A DNA stretch of 35,872 nt from a virus (IMGVR_UViG_3300033123_000281:1-35872); one strand, 5' to 3'. Shown: positions 21,263 through 28,726, counted from the stretch's first letter. A program made the numbers and translations. Notes: generated by a model from the sequence alone, not told the origin.

Positions 21263-21434
21263 CGAGCAACTCGTCACGCTCGCGTGTCGCGCGCAGGGCC
21301 GTGAACCGCTGGTGCAGTCGGACCACGACGGTCCCCCGGCGCATCCCGACCAGCTCGTCCTGCAACAACTGCTGGACCGCCGCCTCGGACAACGACGGCA
21401 GCTTCTTATTTAAATCCCGCCAATTGAGTGTCAT
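21231..21434 (-). CDS. Hypothetical protein
   Basis: ATGA-coupled to the helicase stop; RLHQRF..LR..RER motif. Confidence 0.7.
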   Translation of the reverse strand: MTLNWRDLNKKLPSLSEAAVQQLLQDELVGMRRGTVVVRLHQRFTALRATRERDELLATLRAAQPAP

Positions 21435-22777
21435 GCTTTCAGTTCCTCTAGGGCTATGTCCGAGATCGCGCGCTTGTCGCGCAGGGCGGACCAGATCCGT
21501 TCGTCGATAGTCTTATTACAGAGCAACAGATAACACCAGACCGGCTGCGTCTGCCCGCCCCGGTGCAGCCGCCCGACCGTCTGCTCGTACAGCTCCAGCG
21601 ACCACGGCAGCGACACGAAGACGATCTTGTTGCCGCCGTGTTGCAGATTGAGGCCGTGGCCCGCCGACTTGGGGTGGATCAACAGCAGCTCGATCCGCCC
21701 GGCGTTCCAGCGTTCGATGGCGTTGGGGTCGTCAATCGTCTGGGCGTGTGGGAACCGGCGGCGCAGCTCGGCCAGCTCCTCCTTGTAGTTGTAGACCACG
21801 ATGGTGTTGGCCCGCTGGTTCTCGTCCAGCAGCTCGGCCAGCCGGTCAAATTTGTGGCCGCTGATCCAGATCGCGCGCTTGTCCACGTCAAACTTGCCCG
21901 GCCTGTCGCTGGCGGTTGACGTGCTGTGGTAGACGAACCCGGACGCCATCTGCTGGAGCTTGCTGGTCACGGCGGCCGCGTTGGCCGCAACGACCTGCGC
22001 CGATCCCAGCTCCAGCATCAGGTCGCGCTTCATCACGTTGTAGGGCTTGATGTCGGCCATGTCGCACGCCAGCTCGACCGTGTGGAGCGGCGGCAACTTG
22101 TCGGCGTAGACGCCCGGCTCCAGCACGAACGTGGCAGGCTTGATCGTCGCCATGATCTGCTCAAGCGACCCCTTGCGGGGCGACCACTCGCCGAAGTCGC
22201 GGTTGATGCAGACGAAGTAGCGTTGCAGGAACGCGCCCTTGGACCGGCCCAGCAGCGCCTGGTCCACGATCTTGCACTGCCCGAACACGTCCTCCAGACC
22301 GTTGGACGTGAACGACCCGGTCAGGCCCCAGCGGTAGCGCACGCCCTTGAGGAGCTTTTCCAGCGCCTTGAACCGCTTCCCGCTGGGGTTCTTGACGCGC
22401 GTCAGCTCGTCGAACACCACGCCGTCGAAGCGGGCCATGTCGGCGGCGGTCAGCGTCTGGATGTTGTCGTAGTTCATCACGACCACGTCGGCGTCGGACG
22501 CCAGCGCCGCAGCGCGCTGTGCCGGTGTGCCGACTGCCAGCGCCATCGTCAGGCCCGCCGCCCACTTGGGCCGCTCAATCGGCCACACGTCGGTGCAGAC
22601 GCGCTTGGGCGCGAGGATGAGCCAGCGCCGGGCGTAGCCGTCCGACACCGCCGCCGCCAGCGCCGTGAGCGTGATGGCGGTCTTGCCCGCGCCGACCGGC
22701 GCAAGGATCATGGCGGTGTCGTGCTCGAACAGGAAGTCGGCCGCGTCGTCCTGATACGGTCTAAGGCGCAGCGTCAA
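21431..22777 (-). CDS. SNF2-family (SF2) helicase
   Basis: LRPYQ, GAGKT, VFDEL, GLTGS, SAGHGLNLQ and QTVGRLHRGGQ motifs. Confidence 0.92.
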   Translation of the reverse strand: MTLRLRPYQDDAADFLFEHDTAMILAPVGAGKTAITLTALAAAVSDGYARRWLILAPKRVCTDVWPIERPKWAAGLTMALAVGTPAQRAAALASDADVVVMNYDNIQTLTAADMARFDGVVFDELTRVKNPSGKRFKALEKLLKGVRYRWGLTGSFTSNGLEDVFGQCKIVDQALLGRSKGAFLQRYFVCINRDFGEWSPRKGSLEQIMATIKPATFVLEPGVYADKLPPLHTVELACDMADIKPYNVMKRDLMLELGSAQVVAANAAAVTSKLQQMASGFVYHSTSTASDRPGKFDVDKRAIWISGHKFDRLAELLDENQRANTIVVYNYKEELAELRRRFPHAQTIDDPNAIERWNAGRIELLLIHPKSAGHGLNLQHGGNKIVFVSLPWSLELYEQTVGRLHRGGQTQPVWCYLLLCNKTIDERIWSALRDKRAISDIALEELKA

Positions 22778-23777
22778 GGTACGCTCCTATGACTTCCGCC
22801 GCGACTTGCGGGACGATGGCATTGCCGTAGGCGCGCAGGCGTCCCACTCTGGCGGGAACCCCATGAGCCAAGAGACGAATGCCGGATTTAACGCGCCTCG
22901 ATTTTCCGTCTGCTCCGATGGCCCATCGATGCTCGGACCAGAACCCTGCGCCAGCATTGACAGCATCACTTGCTTGCCCACCGTCACCCGCCGCTGTATC
23001 GCCGGGTCCTCCCAACGCCCCCGGTCCCTGTTGTCCGAGGCGCACGGCGTCGGCCACATCGAAATCGCCGCCGCCCATCCGAGTTTGTTCGGGGTCGTTC
23101 GCCCGTCCCCCGAACAGGTCAGGTTCGTATCGTTCCCGGCGTGCGCCGATGTCGGCGTCGGCCACATCGCCGTCATCACAACTTGATCTACAAGCCGAAT
23201 TTGTTGGTTTTTGCGCGCCGTTCCATTCAAAATACATTTCGTCGGTGTTGCAACATTTCTGTTTGACCCCGCATCCGGCGTCCGCCACAAACCACAGGCG
23301 GTCTCTTCGATGGGGCGCATCGACGGCACAAGCCGGAACAACGACCGCCCCGCAGGCGTAACCGATGCCCTCCAAGTCAGAAGACACTCCGTCGAGCCAA
23401 TCCTTGCCAACCGCTGCCGCAACTTGCTCTCCCATAACGACAGGGGGCCGACAGGCTCGGATGAGGCTGAAGAAGACGGGCCAGAGGTGCCTTTCGTCCG
23501 CCGTGCCTTTTTGCTGACCGGCGGTGCTGAAGGGTTGGCAGGGGGCGCTTCCGGTCCACAGGGGCCGCTCGTCGGGCCATCCGGCGAGGCGGGCGGCGAG
23601 GCTCCAGCCGCCGATACCGGCGAAGAAGTGGCACTGGGTGAAACCGCGCAAGTCCGCAGGAGCCACGTCAAGAATGGATCGCTCATCAACTTCCCCTTTA
23701 GCTATCAGACCTTTGTCTATGAGGTTACGCAGCCACTGGGCGGCGTAAGGCTCCATCTCGTTGTAATACGCGCTCAC
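22761..23777 (-). CDS. C5 cytosine DNA methyltransferase, alpha (catalytic) chain
   Basis: Motif I FFAGIGG, IV PCQPFS, VI EQV, VIII HRRDRLW, X YGNAIVP; no motif IX in this frame; GTG start overlaps the VRR-NUC stop. Confidence 0.9.
   Translation of the reverse strand: MSAYYNEMEPYAAQWLRNLIDKGLIAKGEVDERSILDVAPADLRGFTQCHFFAGIGGWSLAARLAGWPDERPLWTGSAPCQPFSTAGQQKGTADERHLWPVFFSLIRACRPPVVMGEQVAAAVGKDWLDGVSSDLEGIGYACGAVVVPACAVDAPHRRDRLWFVADAGCGVKQKCCNTDEMYFEWNGAQKPTNSACRSSCDDGDVADADIGARRERYEPDLFGGRANDPEQTRMGGGDFDVADAVRLGQQGPGALGGPGDTAAGDGGQASDAVNAGAGFWSEHRWAIGADGKSRRVKSGIRLLAHGVPARVGRLRAYGNAIVPQVAAEVIGAYLDAAP
22787..23689 (-). CDS. Overprinted methyltransferase beta chain in the +1 frame inside the alpha gene (true start uncertain)
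   Basis: 300-codon open frame with three W(P/R)TP modules and a C-terminal LNPAFVSWLMGFPPEW motif IX equivalent. Confidence 0.75.
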   Translation of the reverse strand: MMSDPFLTWLLRTCAVSPSATSSPVSAAGASPPASPDGPTSGPCGPEAPPANPSAPPVSKKARRTKGTSGPSSSASSEPVGPLSLWESKLRQRLARIGSTECLLTWRASVTPAGRSLFRLVPSMRPIEETACGLWRTPDAGSNRNVATPTKCILNGTARKNQQIRLVDQVVMTAMWPTPTSAHAGNDTNLTCSGDGRTTPNKLGWAAAISMWPTPCASDNRDRGRWEDPAIQRRVTVGKQVMLSMLAQGSGPSIDGPSEQTENRGALNPAFVSWLMGFPPEWDACAPTAMPSSRKSRRKS

Positions 23778-24052
23778 AGCCCCGTCTCCCGCGCCCACTC
23801 GTTGATCTCTTCGCGCGACCACAGGCAGGCGTAGTCCTGCCCCAGCGCCAGCATGTCAGCGGCAAACTTCGTCTGGAGCGGTGCCAGCCGCCCGCCCTTC
23901 TTCTTAAGCTCCACGAACCACGTCTGGCCGTTGGGCAGGCACGCCACTTGGTCCGACACGCCGCGCAGCGTGGGCGACTTGAACTTGTACGTCCGCCCGC
24001 CCATGCGGGCGACCGTCCAGATGAAATACGCTTCGATTTCTTTCTCAAGCAT
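23774..24052 (-). CDS. VRR-NUC domain nuclease
   Basis: MLEKEIE...KF.SP..RGVSD...FVELK...GRL..LQ motif; GGGAG ribosome-binding site. Confidence 0.88.
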   Translation of the reverse strand: MLEKEIEAYFIWTVARMGGRTYKFKSPTLRGVSDQVACLPNGQTWFVELKKKGGRLAPLQTKFAADMLALGQDYACLWSREEINEWARETGL

Positions 24053-26005: not shown

Positions 26006-28726
26006 ATGGCGACACTCTGGCTCGATTTCGAGACGCGCAGCCGCTGCGACCTTCGCTCGCGCGGCGTCTACAACTACGCGCAGGACCGCTCCACGTCCGT
26101 GCTGTGCATGTCCTACGCCTTTGACGACGAAGAGGTCGTCACATGGACGCCTGACCAGCCGTTCCCGCGCAGGGTCGCGGAGCACACAGGCCAGATCAGA
26201 GCACACAACGCCGCCTTCGAGCGGCTTATCTTTTGGTTCGTCCTGTGCCCCGACCAAGGCATCCGCGAGCCGTCGCTGTCGCAGTTCTACTGCACGGCAA
26301 CGCAAGCCCGCGCCAACTGCGCGCCCGGCTCGCTGGAGGACGTGGGCCGCTTCAGCGGCGCGACTATGAAGAAAGACCATCGCGGGTCGCAACTGATCCG
26401 CCTGCTGTCGATCCCCCGCGCTGACGGGACGTTCAACGACGATCCGGCGCTGCTGGCCGAGATGTACCGCTATTGTGACCAGGATGTCCGTGCCATGCGC
26501 GCCATCAGCCAGAGTCTGCGCGACCTGTCCGCCGAGGAGCTGGCCGACTACCACGTCAACGAGCGGATCAACGACCGGGGCGTCCGCGTGGATCTCGCGC
26601 TGTGCAACGCAGCGGTCAAGTACGCCAGCGACGAGTTGGCCGAGATCGAACGGATCGTGGCCGAGGTGACGCAGGGGGCCATCACGAGCGTGCGCAGCCC
26701 GAAGATGCGCCAGTGGGTGCAGGACCGCGTGGGGTCGGAGGCGCTTAAGCTGATGACGGTCCACAAGGACGGCGTCGAGAAGGTGTCCATTGACAAGAAC
26801 GTCCGCGCCAACCTGTTGACGTTCGCCGCCGAGAACCCCGACGAGGTGCCGCCCGACGTGGCCGAGGTGATCCAGTGCGCCGACGACCTGTGGGCGTCCA
26901 GCGTGGCGAAGTTCAACCGGCTGGCGGCGATAGCCGACGACGAGGACCAGCGCGTCCGTGGCGCGTTCGTGTTCGCGGGCGGTGCGGCCACCGGGCGGGC
27001 GTCTTCGCATAATGCGCAGGTCCACAACTTCGCCCGTAAGTGCGCCAAGGAGCCAGCCGAGACACGCGAGGCGATGGTGCGCGGCCACAAGATCGTGCCG
27101 CAGTACGGCCGCCGCGTGACCGACGTGCTGAAGGGTATGCTACGCCCGGCGCTGCTGGCGAGCGACGGCAACTGGCTGGCCGTGGCCGACTGGTCGTCCA
27201 TCGAGGCGCGCGTCAACCCGTGGCTGTCGGGCCGGGGCGACGCCAAGCTGGAACTGTTCCGCAGCGGCCGCGATGTCTACAAGGTCAACGCGATGGCGAC
27301 GTTCCGCGTCGAGTTTGACGACGTGACGCCTGACCAGCGTCAAGTTGGAAAAGTCCAAGAACTCGCGTGTCTTTCAGAAGATACTTTAGTGTTGACGGCT
27401 TGCGGAGATAAACGTATTCAAGATGTGCTTCCCGGCGATCTAGTTTGGGACGGCGTGAATTGGGTGCGCACTGACGGCCCGATATACAAAGGCGAACGCG
27501 ATGTCATCGAACACGACAACCTCTGCGCAACACCAGATCACCTTGTCTGGATCGAAGGGACGGCGAACCCGGTTGCATTTGGCTGGGCCGCTGCCCACGG
27601 GATGCGTCTTGCACGACCGAGGACACCGGCTGAAGTTGATTTACCCTTCGTTGGCGCGGCGGTTAACGGCGGCGAAACAGCGTTGCCAAAATCCAAAATC
27701 GCCGGGGTATGTGTCTTACGGCGCGCGCGGGATTTCTTTCGATTTTCCGTCCGTTCTAGCGGCGTATGTATGGGTTTTGGAGAACATAGGCCCGCCAGCC
27801 GAAAGCATGGAATTGGATCGCACGGACAATTCGTTGGGCTACGCTCCGGGCAATCTGCGATGGTCTACAAAAGTGCAGAACCGCCGTCACACATCAAAAA
27901 CTGTGAATACAGCGGCGCAGCATCGGTTTCGCCAGCTATATCCGCACGTTCGGTATGCGGACAACACAATGAAAAACTTGTTGTCAATGGGCCTGACGTT
28001 CGAGCAGATAGAGCGCCGGTGGAACCAGCCCAGTTACAAACCAAAAGGCGTGTATGGGACTTACTCAACTGCGGACCCCTTCATCGCTTCACTGCACAAG
28101 GACGGCTAGTCCATAATTGTGGCTTCGCTGGCGGTGTCGGCGCGTTCGCCGCAATGGGCCGCGTCTACGGTCTGGCGTTGCCAGAACCGGAGGCCAAGCG
28201 CATGGTGGACGGCTGGCGCAAGGCGAACACTTGGGCCTTGCCGTTCTGGCAGGATCTGGAGGAGGCGTATACGCGCGCCATGCGCCACAAGGGTCACGAG
28301 TTCACGGCTGGCCGGATTACCTACTTGTTCGACGGATCGCACCTCTGGTACGCTCTGCCTTCCGGCCGCGTGCTTTGCTATCCCTTCGCGCGTCTGGAGA
28401 CCGAGGGCGTCACTTACGCCAAGGCGTCATGGAAACCCGCAGCAGATGCGAAGGAATGGCCCCGCGCCCGGCTCTGGAAGGGGCTGGCGTGCGAGAATGT
28501 GACGCAAGCGACGGCCAACGACCTGTTGCGCTACTCGCTGCGGATGCTGGACGCGGAGGGGTTCGAACCCGTGCTCCACGTCCATGACGAGATCGTCGTT
28601 GAAACGAACGATCCCGACCTGACGGTCGAGGCGATGAAGCGGATCATGTGCTCCACACCGACGTGGGCCGAGGGGCTACCACTCGGAATTGAGGCGCACA
28701 CGATGCGGAGATACGGCAAGGGTTAA
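26006..28726 (+). CDS. polA: Family A DNA polymerase precursor containing an intein (656 aa after splicing)
   Basis: ExoI DFET, ExoII HNAAFER, motif A ADWSSIEARV, motif B RQVGKVQELA|CGFAGG, motif C HVHDEIV. Confidence 0.93.
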   Translation: MATLWLDFETRSRCDLRSRGVYNYAQDRSTSVLCMSYAFDDEEVVTWTPDQPFPRRVAEHTGQIRAHNAAFERLIFWFVLCPDQGIREPSLSQFYCTATQARANCAPGSLEDVGRFSGATMKKDHRGSQLIRLLSIPRADGTFNDDPALLAEMYRYCDQDVRAMRAISQSLRDLSAEELADYHVNERINDRGVRVDLALCNAAVKYASDELAEIERIVAEVTQGAITSVRSPKMRQWVQDRVGSEALKLMTVHKDGVEKVSIDKNVRANLLTFAAENPDEVPPDVAEVIQCADDLWASSVAKFNRLAAIADDEDQRVRGAFVFAGGAATGRASSHNAQVHNFARKCAKEPAETREAMVRGHKIVPQYGRRVTDVLKGMLRPALLASDGNWLAVADWSSIEARVNPWLSGRGDAKLELFRSGRDVYKVNAMATFRVEFDDVTPDQRQVGKVQELACLSEDTLVLTACGDKRIQDVLPGDLVWDGVNWVRTDGPIYKGERDVIEHDNLCATPDHLVWIEGTANPVAFGWAAAHGMRLARPRTPAEVDLPFVGAAVNGGETALPKSKIAGVCVLRRARDFFRFSVRSSGVCMGFGEHRPASRKHGIGSHGQFVGLRSGQSAMVYKSAEPPSHIKNCEYSGAASVSPAISARSVCGQHNEKLVVNGPDVRADRAPVEPAQLQTKRRVWDLLNCGPLHRFTAQGRLVHNCGFAGGVGAFAAMGRVYGLALPEPEAKRMVDGWRKANTWALPFWQDLEEAYTRAMRHKGHEFTAGRITYLFDGSHLWYALPSGRVLCYPFARLETEGVTYAKASWKPAADAKEWPRARLWKGLACENVTQATANDLLRYSLRMLDAEGFEPVLHVHDEIVVETNDPDLTVEAMKRIMCSTPTWAEGLPLGIEAHTMRRYGKG
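27368..28117 (+). mobile_element. Intein (250 aa) inserted in polymerase motif B
   Basis: Block A CLSEDTLV, block B TPDH, block F VWDL, terminal HN followed by Cys+1; removing it rejoins motif B. Confidence 0.93.
27501..28109 (+). CDS. HNH-type endonuclease nested in the +1 frame of the intein (start uncertain)
   Basis: KQRCQNPKSPGYVSYGARGI...LDRTDNSLGYAPGNLRWST matches the phage RC.NP...YG.RGI...DRIDN..GY.P.N.RW HNH family. Confidence 0.85.
   Translation: MSSNTTTSAQHQITLSGSKGRRTRLHLAGPLPTGCVLHDRGHRLKLIYPSLARRLTAAKQRCQNPKSPGYVSYGARGISFDFPSVLAAYVWVLENIGPPAESMELDRTDNSLGYAPGNLRWSTKVQNRRHTSKTVNTAAQHRFRQLYPHVRYADNTMKNLLSMGLTFEQIERRWNQPSYKPKGVYGTYSTADPFIASLHKDG

What the first reader, a model, noticed from the sequence alone, without database searches (positions are those of the whole stretch)
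27368..28117. PolA intein carries its homing endonuclease in a different reading frame
Seen: a 250-aa intein (C1...TPDH...VWDL...HN/C+1) interrupts polymerase motif B. Its central region has no recognisable motif in the polymerase frame but stays open. The +1 frame (27501-28109) encodes an HNH-family protein (RCQNP..YGARGI..LDRTDN..GYAPGNLRW) that overlaps splicing block B and block F and stops 8 nt before the intein end. Established: canonical inteins carry the endonuclease in frame. Inference: about 600 nt are dual-coding, and the nuclease is made separately (ATG 27501, CTG/TTG at 27630/27636 after GAGGA, or a +1 frameshift), so homing is uncoupled from splicing. I recall out-of-frame intein endonucleases being reported in some actinobacteriophages, so the architecture is rare rather than certainly new.
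Basis: partly seen in the sequence, partly recalled or inferred. Interest (0 to 1): 0.9.

Follow-up and report, generated by a model that had tools for sequence, protein, structure and literature searches.

The report
Polymerase intein hiding out-of-frame nuclease gene
A freshwater phage's DNA polymerase gene carries a 750-base insert with the hallmarks of a self-splicing protein (intein), and the same DNA, read one base out of step, encodes a conserved HNH-like protein that is likely made separately and likely spreads the insert; the layout is the rule in a large phage intein family, but out-of-frame intein nucleases were already described in 2025-26.

Summary
Confirmed. A 750-nt insert with class-1 intein motifs (27368-28117) sits in PolA motif B; near-identical phages lack exactly these 750 nt. 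A 202-aa ORF in the +1 frame (27501-28109) matches PHROG HNH endonucleases (E 1.7e-17). It is no assembly error: 178 of 182 distinct relatives keep the intein frame open, and all 41 full-length inteins fetched by the splicing domain alone carry the +1 nuclease (one with a stop), none in frame. Selection moves to the +1 frame in the middle (pN/pS 0.28 against 1.71), where the intein frame only avoids stops. A start codon and Shine-Dalgarno site hidden in block B alternate between two positions across the family, which points to separate translation; ATG 27501 is the best start, TTG 27573 a rival, and 27630/27636 are not conserved. The family occupies PolA and several helicase sites and has mini and split forms. 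The catalytic His is replaced by Arg, with an invariant Tyr; activity is untested. The layout is published for other nuclease types (bioRxiv 2025, 2026), APSE-1 P46 is an annotated cousin, and this scan noted it on other DNA many times (19 notes). New variant of a known kind.

The parts
26006..27367 (+). PolA N-extein (family A DNA polymerase), ending in motif B ...GKVQELA
   Evidence: ORF; Pfam PF00476; phrog_17 E 4e-56
27368..28117 (+). 250-aa intein in the polymerase frame (frame 0), C1...TPDH...VWD...HN
   Evidence: exact 750-nt skip in contig X15 record 22; empty alleles; Hint_2 E 0.006, below cut-off
27368..27553 (+). N-terminal splicing region (blocks A and B), purifying selection in frame 0
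   Evidence: pN/pS 0.21-0.28 in frame 0; alignment A3
27488..27503 (+). Shine-Dalgarno-like AAAGG in the Lys-Gly codons and ATG 27501 spanning the Asp-Val codons: likely start of the +1 gene
   Evidence: family-level codon bias and site swap; weak in the window itself, dG -4.2
27573..27575 (+). TTG, rival or second start of the +1 gene (dG -7.2), conserved in 6 of 6 same-length inteins
27501..28109 (+). 202-aa HNH-like (D-R...Y...N...N) endonuclease ORF in the +1 frame; lacks the CxxC...CxxC module of longer relatives
27608..28027 (+). Middle region: frame 0 is an unconserved but stop-free linker, +1 frame is the conserved nuclease core and C-terminal helices
   Evidence: frame 0 pN/pS 1.45-2.89, +1 pN/pS 0.20-0.39; stop avoidance
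28028..28117 (+). C-terminal splicing region (blocks F, G) overlapped by the nuclease C-terminus; both frames conserved; +1 stop TAG at 28107-28109
   Evidence: pN/pS 0.31 in both frames for aa 221-247; stop at the same place in 73 of 99
28118..28726 (+). PolA C-extein starting with Cys+1 (CGFAGG...)

Best explanation
The insert is an intein-like element in the polymerase frame that likely splices itself out as a protein, while an overlapping gene in the +1 frame is likely translated on its own from a ribosome-binding site hidden in splicing block B and is predicted to give a free HNH-like nuclease that would cut intein-less polA alleles and so spread the element by homing. Shown by sequence: two open frames, exact 750-nt insertion, selection on the splicing ends in frame 0 and on the nuclease in frame +1, active avoidance of stops in the frame-0 middle. 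Inferred: internal initiation at ATG 27501 (or TTG 27573) on the polA mRNA; the excised 250-aa intein is a mini-intein with a meaningless loop; the nuclease uses a Tyr (Y114) in place of the usual His; it cuts or nicks near the empty ELA|CGF junction during co-infection and repair copies the 750 nt. Inferred history: a free-standing nuclease gene invaded a mini-intein once, in the +1 phase, and the pair then travelled as one unit into PolA and helicase sites; deletions give mini-inteins; the window's clade lost a zinc-binding module by a deletion that kept both frames.
For: Frames: 178 of 182 distinct complete relatives have an open intein frame with C1 and HN/SN ends. Unbiased set: 58 distinct complete inteins from the best 80 of 221 loci found with the splicing-domain alignment are 41 full-length, all with the +1 nuclease (40 stop-free), and 17 mini; none in frame. 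Selection among 6 same-length inteins: aa 63-220 frame 0 pN/pS 1.71, aa identity 39%; +1 pN/pS 0.28, identity 71%. In contig X13, 6 of the 7 listed changes inside the ORF are silent in +1 and change frame 0. Stop avoidance in frame 0: 0 stops in 21,055 codons of 99 representatives against 1394 +/- 30 (synonymous redraw) or 946 +/- 24 (codon shuffle); the third frame shows 1039 against 1032 expected. Start: 70 of 99 have an in-frame ATG at 29 or 17 nt before the TxxH codon; the T that makes it is chosen in 26 of 31 (11.6 expected from each locus's own codon use) and, when the first site is absent, 44 of 51 (20.5 expected), but only 5 of 22 when the first site is present; anti-SD pairing median -7.6 and -7.4 against -2.8 kcal/mol for 463 internal ATGs; the state changes at least 24 times on a FastTree. 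Homing signs: X15 contig lacks the 750 nt with 11 differences in 876 flanking nt; window exteins are 95% identical to an empty allele but 70% to the next intein-bearing one, and 5 intein-bearing alleles need 5 changes among 67 empty ones; L024 and L023/L084/L097/L103 share 99% intein identity in 70%-identical helicase flanks. Active-site candidates D106 98/99, R107 99/99, Y114 99/99, N118 99/99, N127 87/99 (Q in 12).
Against: No expression, splicing or cleavage data. The window's own SD at 27501 is weak (-4.2) and the first 16-18 residues of the +1 ORF show no purifying selection (pN/pS 1.18-1.25). All 17 mini-inteins still keep one of the two ATGs, so the ATG outlasts the nuclease, at least in the short run. 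29 of 99 have neither ATG and would need other starts. The catalytic His is absent; fold searches rank I-HmuI first (Foldseek E 0.3) and PacI second (Z 4.9, rmsd 3.4, 76 aligned) but neither is significant; Pfam finds HNH_3 in only 1 of 40 aligned members. Codon tests treat related sequences as independent. A patchy tree also fits repeated loss.
Confidence: 0.8

Rival explanations
1. The nuclease is made by a programmed +1 frameshift in or after block B, as a fusion to the polymerase N-extein and the N-terminal intein half.
For: The +1 ORF has no strong SD in the window; one locus, L185, has the N-half joined in frame to the nuclease; the first codons of the +1 ORF are not under selection.
Against: L185 is 1 of 182 and has stops in the middle, like an error or a dead copy; the ATG/SD swap between two sites is not expected under frameshifting; the region around 27501 has no unusual RNA fold (z 0.38).
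Confidence: 0.06
2. The +1 protein is made but is not the homing nuclease of this site: it is a DNA-binding or non-cutting relic kept for another use, and the intein moves by ordinary recombination.
For: His general base replaced by Arg; the window's clade (8 of 99) has lost the CxxC module; no significant structural match.
Against: Putative metal ligands and Tyr are invariant across 99 divergent members; free-standing relatives annotated as HNH endonucleases share the D-R...Y pattern; Tyr for His is documented in PacI (PMC5714182, passages); homing-like distribution.
Confidence: 0.12
3. Assembly artefact or a decayed in-frame HNH intein with two compensating indels.
For: Raw reads were not available (offer contigs only).
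Against: Same phase in all 126 stop-free complete inteins of the first set and all 41 full-length of the unbiased set; X13 contig from another study has the same phase.
Confidence: 0.01

Closest known systems
[quoted passage not shown]
   Same: Contiguous phage intein, open in the host frame, with a same-strand endonuclease ORF in another frame; proposed origin by invasion of a free-standing HEN.
   Different: [quoted passage not shown] Here: D-R...Y HNH-like protein, +1 frame (frame 2), overlapping blocks B and F, and the rule of the family.
Cyanobacterial dnaX intein with out-of-frame LAGLIDADG HEN (Phillips, DeSimone, Gogarten, bioRxiv 10.64898/2026.09.14.751524; whole main text read)
   Same: Frame-dependent dN/dS, putative SD upstream of the nested start, coexisting empty, mini and full alleles.
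   Different: Bacterial chromosomal gene, LAGLIDADG nuclease, one insertion site; here phages, HNH-like nuclease, many PolA and helicase sites.
Hamiltonella phage APSE-1 P45 polymerase intein with nested CDS P46 (GenBank AF157835)
   Same: Related splicing domain (38% over 93 aa); P46 is annotated inside the intein, lies in the +1 frame and is a D-R...Y HNH-like protein.
   Different: Another PolA site (GGKS|C...HN|CENI); P46 groups with free-standing nucleases, not with the 99 family members, so likely a separate invasion; annotated without a function.
ShiLan element in phage methylases (PMC11855218; abstract and passages read)
   Same: [quoted passage not shown]
   Different: No splicing domain, third frame.
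Fractured genes with split inteins (Dassa et al. 2009, PMC2677866; passages read)
   Same: Endonuclease ORF between and overlapping intein halves; L203, L207/L210 and L214 are of this kind with a related nuclease.
   Different: The window's intein is contiguous; Dassa's nucleases were GIY-YIG and Vsr-like.

Membership tests
Class 1 intein | Cys/Ser at position 1, TxxH in block B, penultimate His and terminal Asn, Cys/Ser/Thr at +1 (motif definitions recalled) | tested here: met
   C1, TPDH 55-58, HN, C+1; C1 in 178 of 178, ends HNC 138, SNC 38, HNS 2
Class 1 intein | Precise in-frame insertion relative to an empty allele | tested here: met
   750-nt skip 27367 to 28118 in X15 record 22; 120 empty-junction loci listed
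Class 1 intein | HINT fold | tested here: inconclusive
   Hint_2 E 0.006, below cut-off; weak PDB sequence hits are all intein or intein-like, E 0.04-0.5; single-sequence model unusable, pLDDT 30
Class 1 intein | Protein splicing activity | not testable with these tools
   needs an assay
Canonical intein with in-frame HEN | Endonuclease in the same frame as the splicing blocks | tested here: not met
   nuclease in +1 in the window and in 41 of 41 full-length inteins of the unbiased set
HNH / beta-beta-alpha-metal endonuclease | Sequence similarity to HNH endonuclease families | tested here: met
   phrog_3377 E 1.7e-17, phrog_374 E 1.3e-15; no Pfam or NCBIfam hit
HNH / beta-beta-alpha-metal endonuclease | Catalytic His general base | tested here: not met
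   Arg107 in 99 of 99 at the position after the conserved Asp; the register with I-HmuI His75 is recalled, not printed by a call
HNH / beta-beta-alpha-metal endonuclease | Tyr substitute in the loop, as in PacI (PMC5714182, passages) | tested here: inconclusive
   Tyr114 invariant; PacI match Z 4.9, rmsd 3.4, 76 aligned, residue register not shown
HNH / beta-beta-alpha-metal endonuclease | beta-beta-alpha fold | tested here: inconclusive
   model has strand 104-107, strand 119-122, helix 124-131 at high pLDDT; top Foldseek rows I-HmuI E 0.3, Gme HNH E 1.1, PacI E 2.2
HNH / beta-beta-alpha-metal endonuclease | DNA cleavage at the empty allele | not testable with these tools
   needs an assay
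Out-of-frame EndoVII-like inteins of Gosselin et al. | EndoVII-like HEN in frame 3 | tested here: not met
   frame +1 (frame 2); window protein hits HNH PHROGs, not EndoVII; relative P0031 has only a weak EndoVII hit, E 7e-5, against HNH E 2e-23
Out-of-frame EndoVII-like inteins of Gosselin et al. | Sequence identity with their clusters | not testable with these tools
   bioRxiv supplements are closed; no Mycobacterium/actinophage record among the 24 phage records matching the intein
Fractured gene (split intein) | Host gene broken into two ORFs | tested here: not met
   window polA is one 906-aa ORF; met in L203, L207/L210, L214

The most novel reading that the evidence does not exclude
A large, unpublished phage intein family in which the homing nuclease has never been in frame: its start codon and Shine-Dalgarno site are written into the synonymous positions of splicing block B and hop between two sites; freed from the splicing protein, a Tyr-type HNH nuclease has retargeted the same intein into PolA, several SF2-helicase sites and a replicative-type helicase, and the same parts also occur as mini and split inteins, giving a full series for testing how inteins gain, lose and are broken by their nucleases.
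Probability: 0.5. Interest if true: 0.62.

Novelty: new variant of a known kind. Interest (0 to 1): 0.43.

Why it matters
It shows that an intein and its homing nuclease can stay separate proteins for a long evolutionary time while sharing one stretch of DNA, which supports the 'splicing first, nuclease invades later' model with a large natural data set (full, mini, split and empty alleles). Gene callers miss either the nuclease or the intein (phage records annotate only 'DNA polymerase I' over it). It also offers a compact intein tolerant of any central loop, and a test of Tyr-dependent HNH catalysis in a homing enzyme. The concept itself is no longer new.

Tried and rejected
Single-sequence AlphaFold of the frame-0 intein gave pLDDT 30 and says nothing. 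Pfam, NCBIfam and PDB sequence searches did not name the +1 protein; structure searches gave only weak HNH rows. Promoter/terminator scan: one 9-of-12 site at 28088-28117 against 0.3 expected, not used. No notable RNA fold at the start and only chance-level repeats, so an RNA-level intron or bypass element was not supported. Starts at 27630/27636 rejected as unconserved. No similarity between the two frames' proteins. The reciprocal stop test (17 stops seen in +1 against 678 expected) includes members whose ORF starts after TxxH and loci selected by the +1 protein, so it is not used as evidence. X13's intein-versus-flank divergence (9 listed changes in 750 nt of 53 over 1383 nt) hints at recent transfer but the table was cut, so the count is a lower bound and remains open. 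The careful tree did not finish; a quick IQ-TREE and FastTree were used. No complex prediction was run.

Full report
Setting. The window looks like a phage with P22-type portal and coat, terminase, SNF2 helicase, C5 methylase, a DUF2800 nuclease, polA and a primase. Runs holding the stretch are riverine, lake and freshwater metagenomes plus one coded organism label; the nearest annotated polymerase is 59% identical, from a spring metagenome phage.

Observation. polA (26006-28726) is one open 906-aa frame. Bases 27368-28117 give 250 aa with C1, TPDH, VWD and HN, then Cys. The +1 frame holds ORF 27501-28109; the third frame is closed. A contig of run X15 skips exactly 27368-28117 with 8 and 3 differences in 293 and 583 flanking bases, and a contig of X13 (another study) carries the insert with no indel listed inside it. 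Only contigs, no raw reads, were offered.

The +1 protein. It has 94 homologues among 188 candidates, many of exactly 202 aa at 62-83% identity. PHROG HNH families match at E 1.7e-17; Pfam and NCBIfam do not match. The model from a 40-row alignment has mean pLDDT 80 with a strand-strand-helix unit at 104-131; Foldseek puts I-HmuI first but at E 0.3, and VIA-align puts PacI second at Z 4.9, both inconclusive. Among 99 representatives D106, R107, Y114, N118 and N127 are kept in 98, 99, 99, 99 and 87. Arg stands where HNH enzymes have the His base (register recalled); Tyr replacing His is described for PacI (PMC5714182, PMC3384342, passages). 91 of 99 members carry an extra CxxC...CxxC module; the 8 that lack it are the window's clade.

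The family. Scans with the +1 protein, its alignments and a DNA pattern gave 217 loci; with the window, 213 of 218 had a nuclease hit, 171 had both intein ends (130 distinct), 29 were partial and 13 free-standing. Of the 130, 126 have both ends in one stop-free frame with the nuclease at +1, one has a frameshift (L185) and three are split inteins (L203, L207/L210, L214). Because these searches chose loci by the +1 protein, I searched again with the splicing domain only (best 80 of 221 loci): 58 distinct complete inteins, 41 full-length, all with the +1 nuclease (L287 has one stop), 17 mini, none in frame. Both sets together: 182 distinct, 178 open (156 full, 22 short). Flanks fall in 16 clusters; Pfam on 22 representative flanks shows PolA and Helicase_C hosts; four loci with a ...VV|C(I/V)DYAD junction look like replicative helicases by recall but had no informative Pfam hit. 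On trees, the 99 contiguous members (plus the long-branched MR14 protein) lie on one side of a branch with support 99 (whole ORF, quick IQ-TREE) and 97 (83-column core, FastTree), apart from free-standing nucleases, the split forms and APSE-1 P46. Host labels change 17 times on the tree of 114 (least possible 10), so the element has switched host genes.

Selection. Among six 750-nt inteins (60-76% ungapped identity to the window including flanks), pN/pS is 0.21-0.28 in frame 0 over aa 1-60, then 1.45-2.89 in frame 0 against 0.20-0.39 in +1 over aa 81-220, and low in both frames over blocks F-G. The frame-0 middle is thus filler whose only visible duty is to stay open: 0 stops in 21,055 codons against 946-1394 expected, while the third frame has the expected number. 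The N-extein row is not reliable, since it was compared without gaps.

Translation start. 70 of 99 representatives have an in-frame ATG 29 nt (26) or 17 nt (49, of which 5 have both) before the TxxH codon. Both arise from a synonymous T in frame 0. That T is over-used at the first site (26 of 31, 11.6 expected) and at the second when the first is missing (44 of 51, 20.5 expected), not when it is present (5 of 22, 7.3 expected; Fisher p 3e-7). The first site follows AAAGG(A) in the Lys-Gly codons, the second GAGGT in Glu-Val codons; anti-SD pairing is -7.6 and -7.4 against -2.8 kcal/mol at internal ATGs. The state changes at least 24 times on the tree, though the p-values ignore relatedness. 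Against: the window's site is weak (-4.2), a TTG at 27573 is conserved in 6 of 6 with -4.6 to -9.5, 29 of 99 use neither ATG, and all 17 mini-inteins keep an ATG.

Mobility. About 290 viral stretches are estimated to hold the empty GKVQELA|CGFAGG junction (120 listed). Using 67 distinct empty alleles with full flanks and 5 intein-bearing ones, the window's flanks are 95% identical to empty L323 but 70% to the next intein-bearing allele, and the five need five changes. Of 41 same-site pairs with intein identity of 95% or more, 5 have both flanks at 85% or less (four involve L024), while 0 of 16 pairs with near-identical flanks have a diverged intein (only pairs sharing a quarter of their 11-mers were compared, which limits that last count).

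Known work. Seven paper searches. Out-of-frame intein nucleases are described in actinobacteriophages (EndoVII-like, frame 3; bioRxiv 10.1101/2025.01.02.630785, passages and sections 8, 15) and in cyanobacterial dnaX (LAGLIDADG, with frame-specific dN/dS and putative SD; bioRxiv 10.64898/2026.09.14.751524, whole main text), which cites Gorbalenya 1998 (not read). ShiLan is an out-of-frame HNH without splicing domain (PMC11855218, passages); fractured genes are in PMC2677866 (passages). APSE-1's GenBank record annotates P46 inside the P45 intein, and it is a +1 HNH-like ORF; PMC7313666 (passages) mentions loss of that intein but not P46. These searches showed no paper on this +1 HNH family or on the start-site swap; subscription papers and bioRxiv supplements were not visible. 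Earlier notes of this scan report the same layout on other DNA (1 by sequence, 19 by words); they are not independent support.

Verdict. Interest 0.43.

Noticed in passing
L203:1948-2975, L207/L210:1984-2972, L214:1981-2993 (approximate): Split PolA inteins: N-half ends at a stop, a related nuclease runs in +1 across the gap, and the C-half (...VYDIRNCGPRHRF...HN|S) restarts in the third frame; insertion just before the ...NLQN / NWQN motif.
   Followed up: partly
L298 (APSE-1, AF157835 29132-29554): Annotated CDS P46, nested in the P45 polymerase intein, is a +1-frame D-R...Y HNH-like protein with no function given.
   Followed up: yes
L300 (Pseudomonas phage MR14, MT104474): Related PolA motif-B intein with an HNH-like ORF in the +2 frame instead of +1, unannotated; intein frame open.
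   Followed up: partly
L299 (Streptococcus phage Javan113) and other named streptococcal and Gardnerella phages: Cultured-host prophages carry the same family; records annotate only DNA polymerase I.
   Followed up: partly
L057, L071, L095, L113, L137: Internally deleted inteins (408-540 nt) that have lost the nuclease core yet keep both frames open; L135 and L137 are a full and a deleted copy in one genome assembly at the same helicase site.
   Followed up: partly
L024 against L023, L084, L097, L103: Inteins 99% identical in helicase flanks only about 70% identical: likely recent transfer.
   Followed up: partly
L296:1551-2000: Weak Intein_splicing hit just upstream of the family intein: possibly a second intein in the same polA.
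   Followed up: no
window 22761-23822 (-) and 21431-22777 (-): C5 cytosine methylase and SNF2 helicase on the minus strand; methylation might bear on nuclease targeting.
   Followed up: no
window 27340-27355: Contig X13 has 6 listed differences in the 16 bases close upstream of the insertion site but few in the intein.
   Followed up: partly
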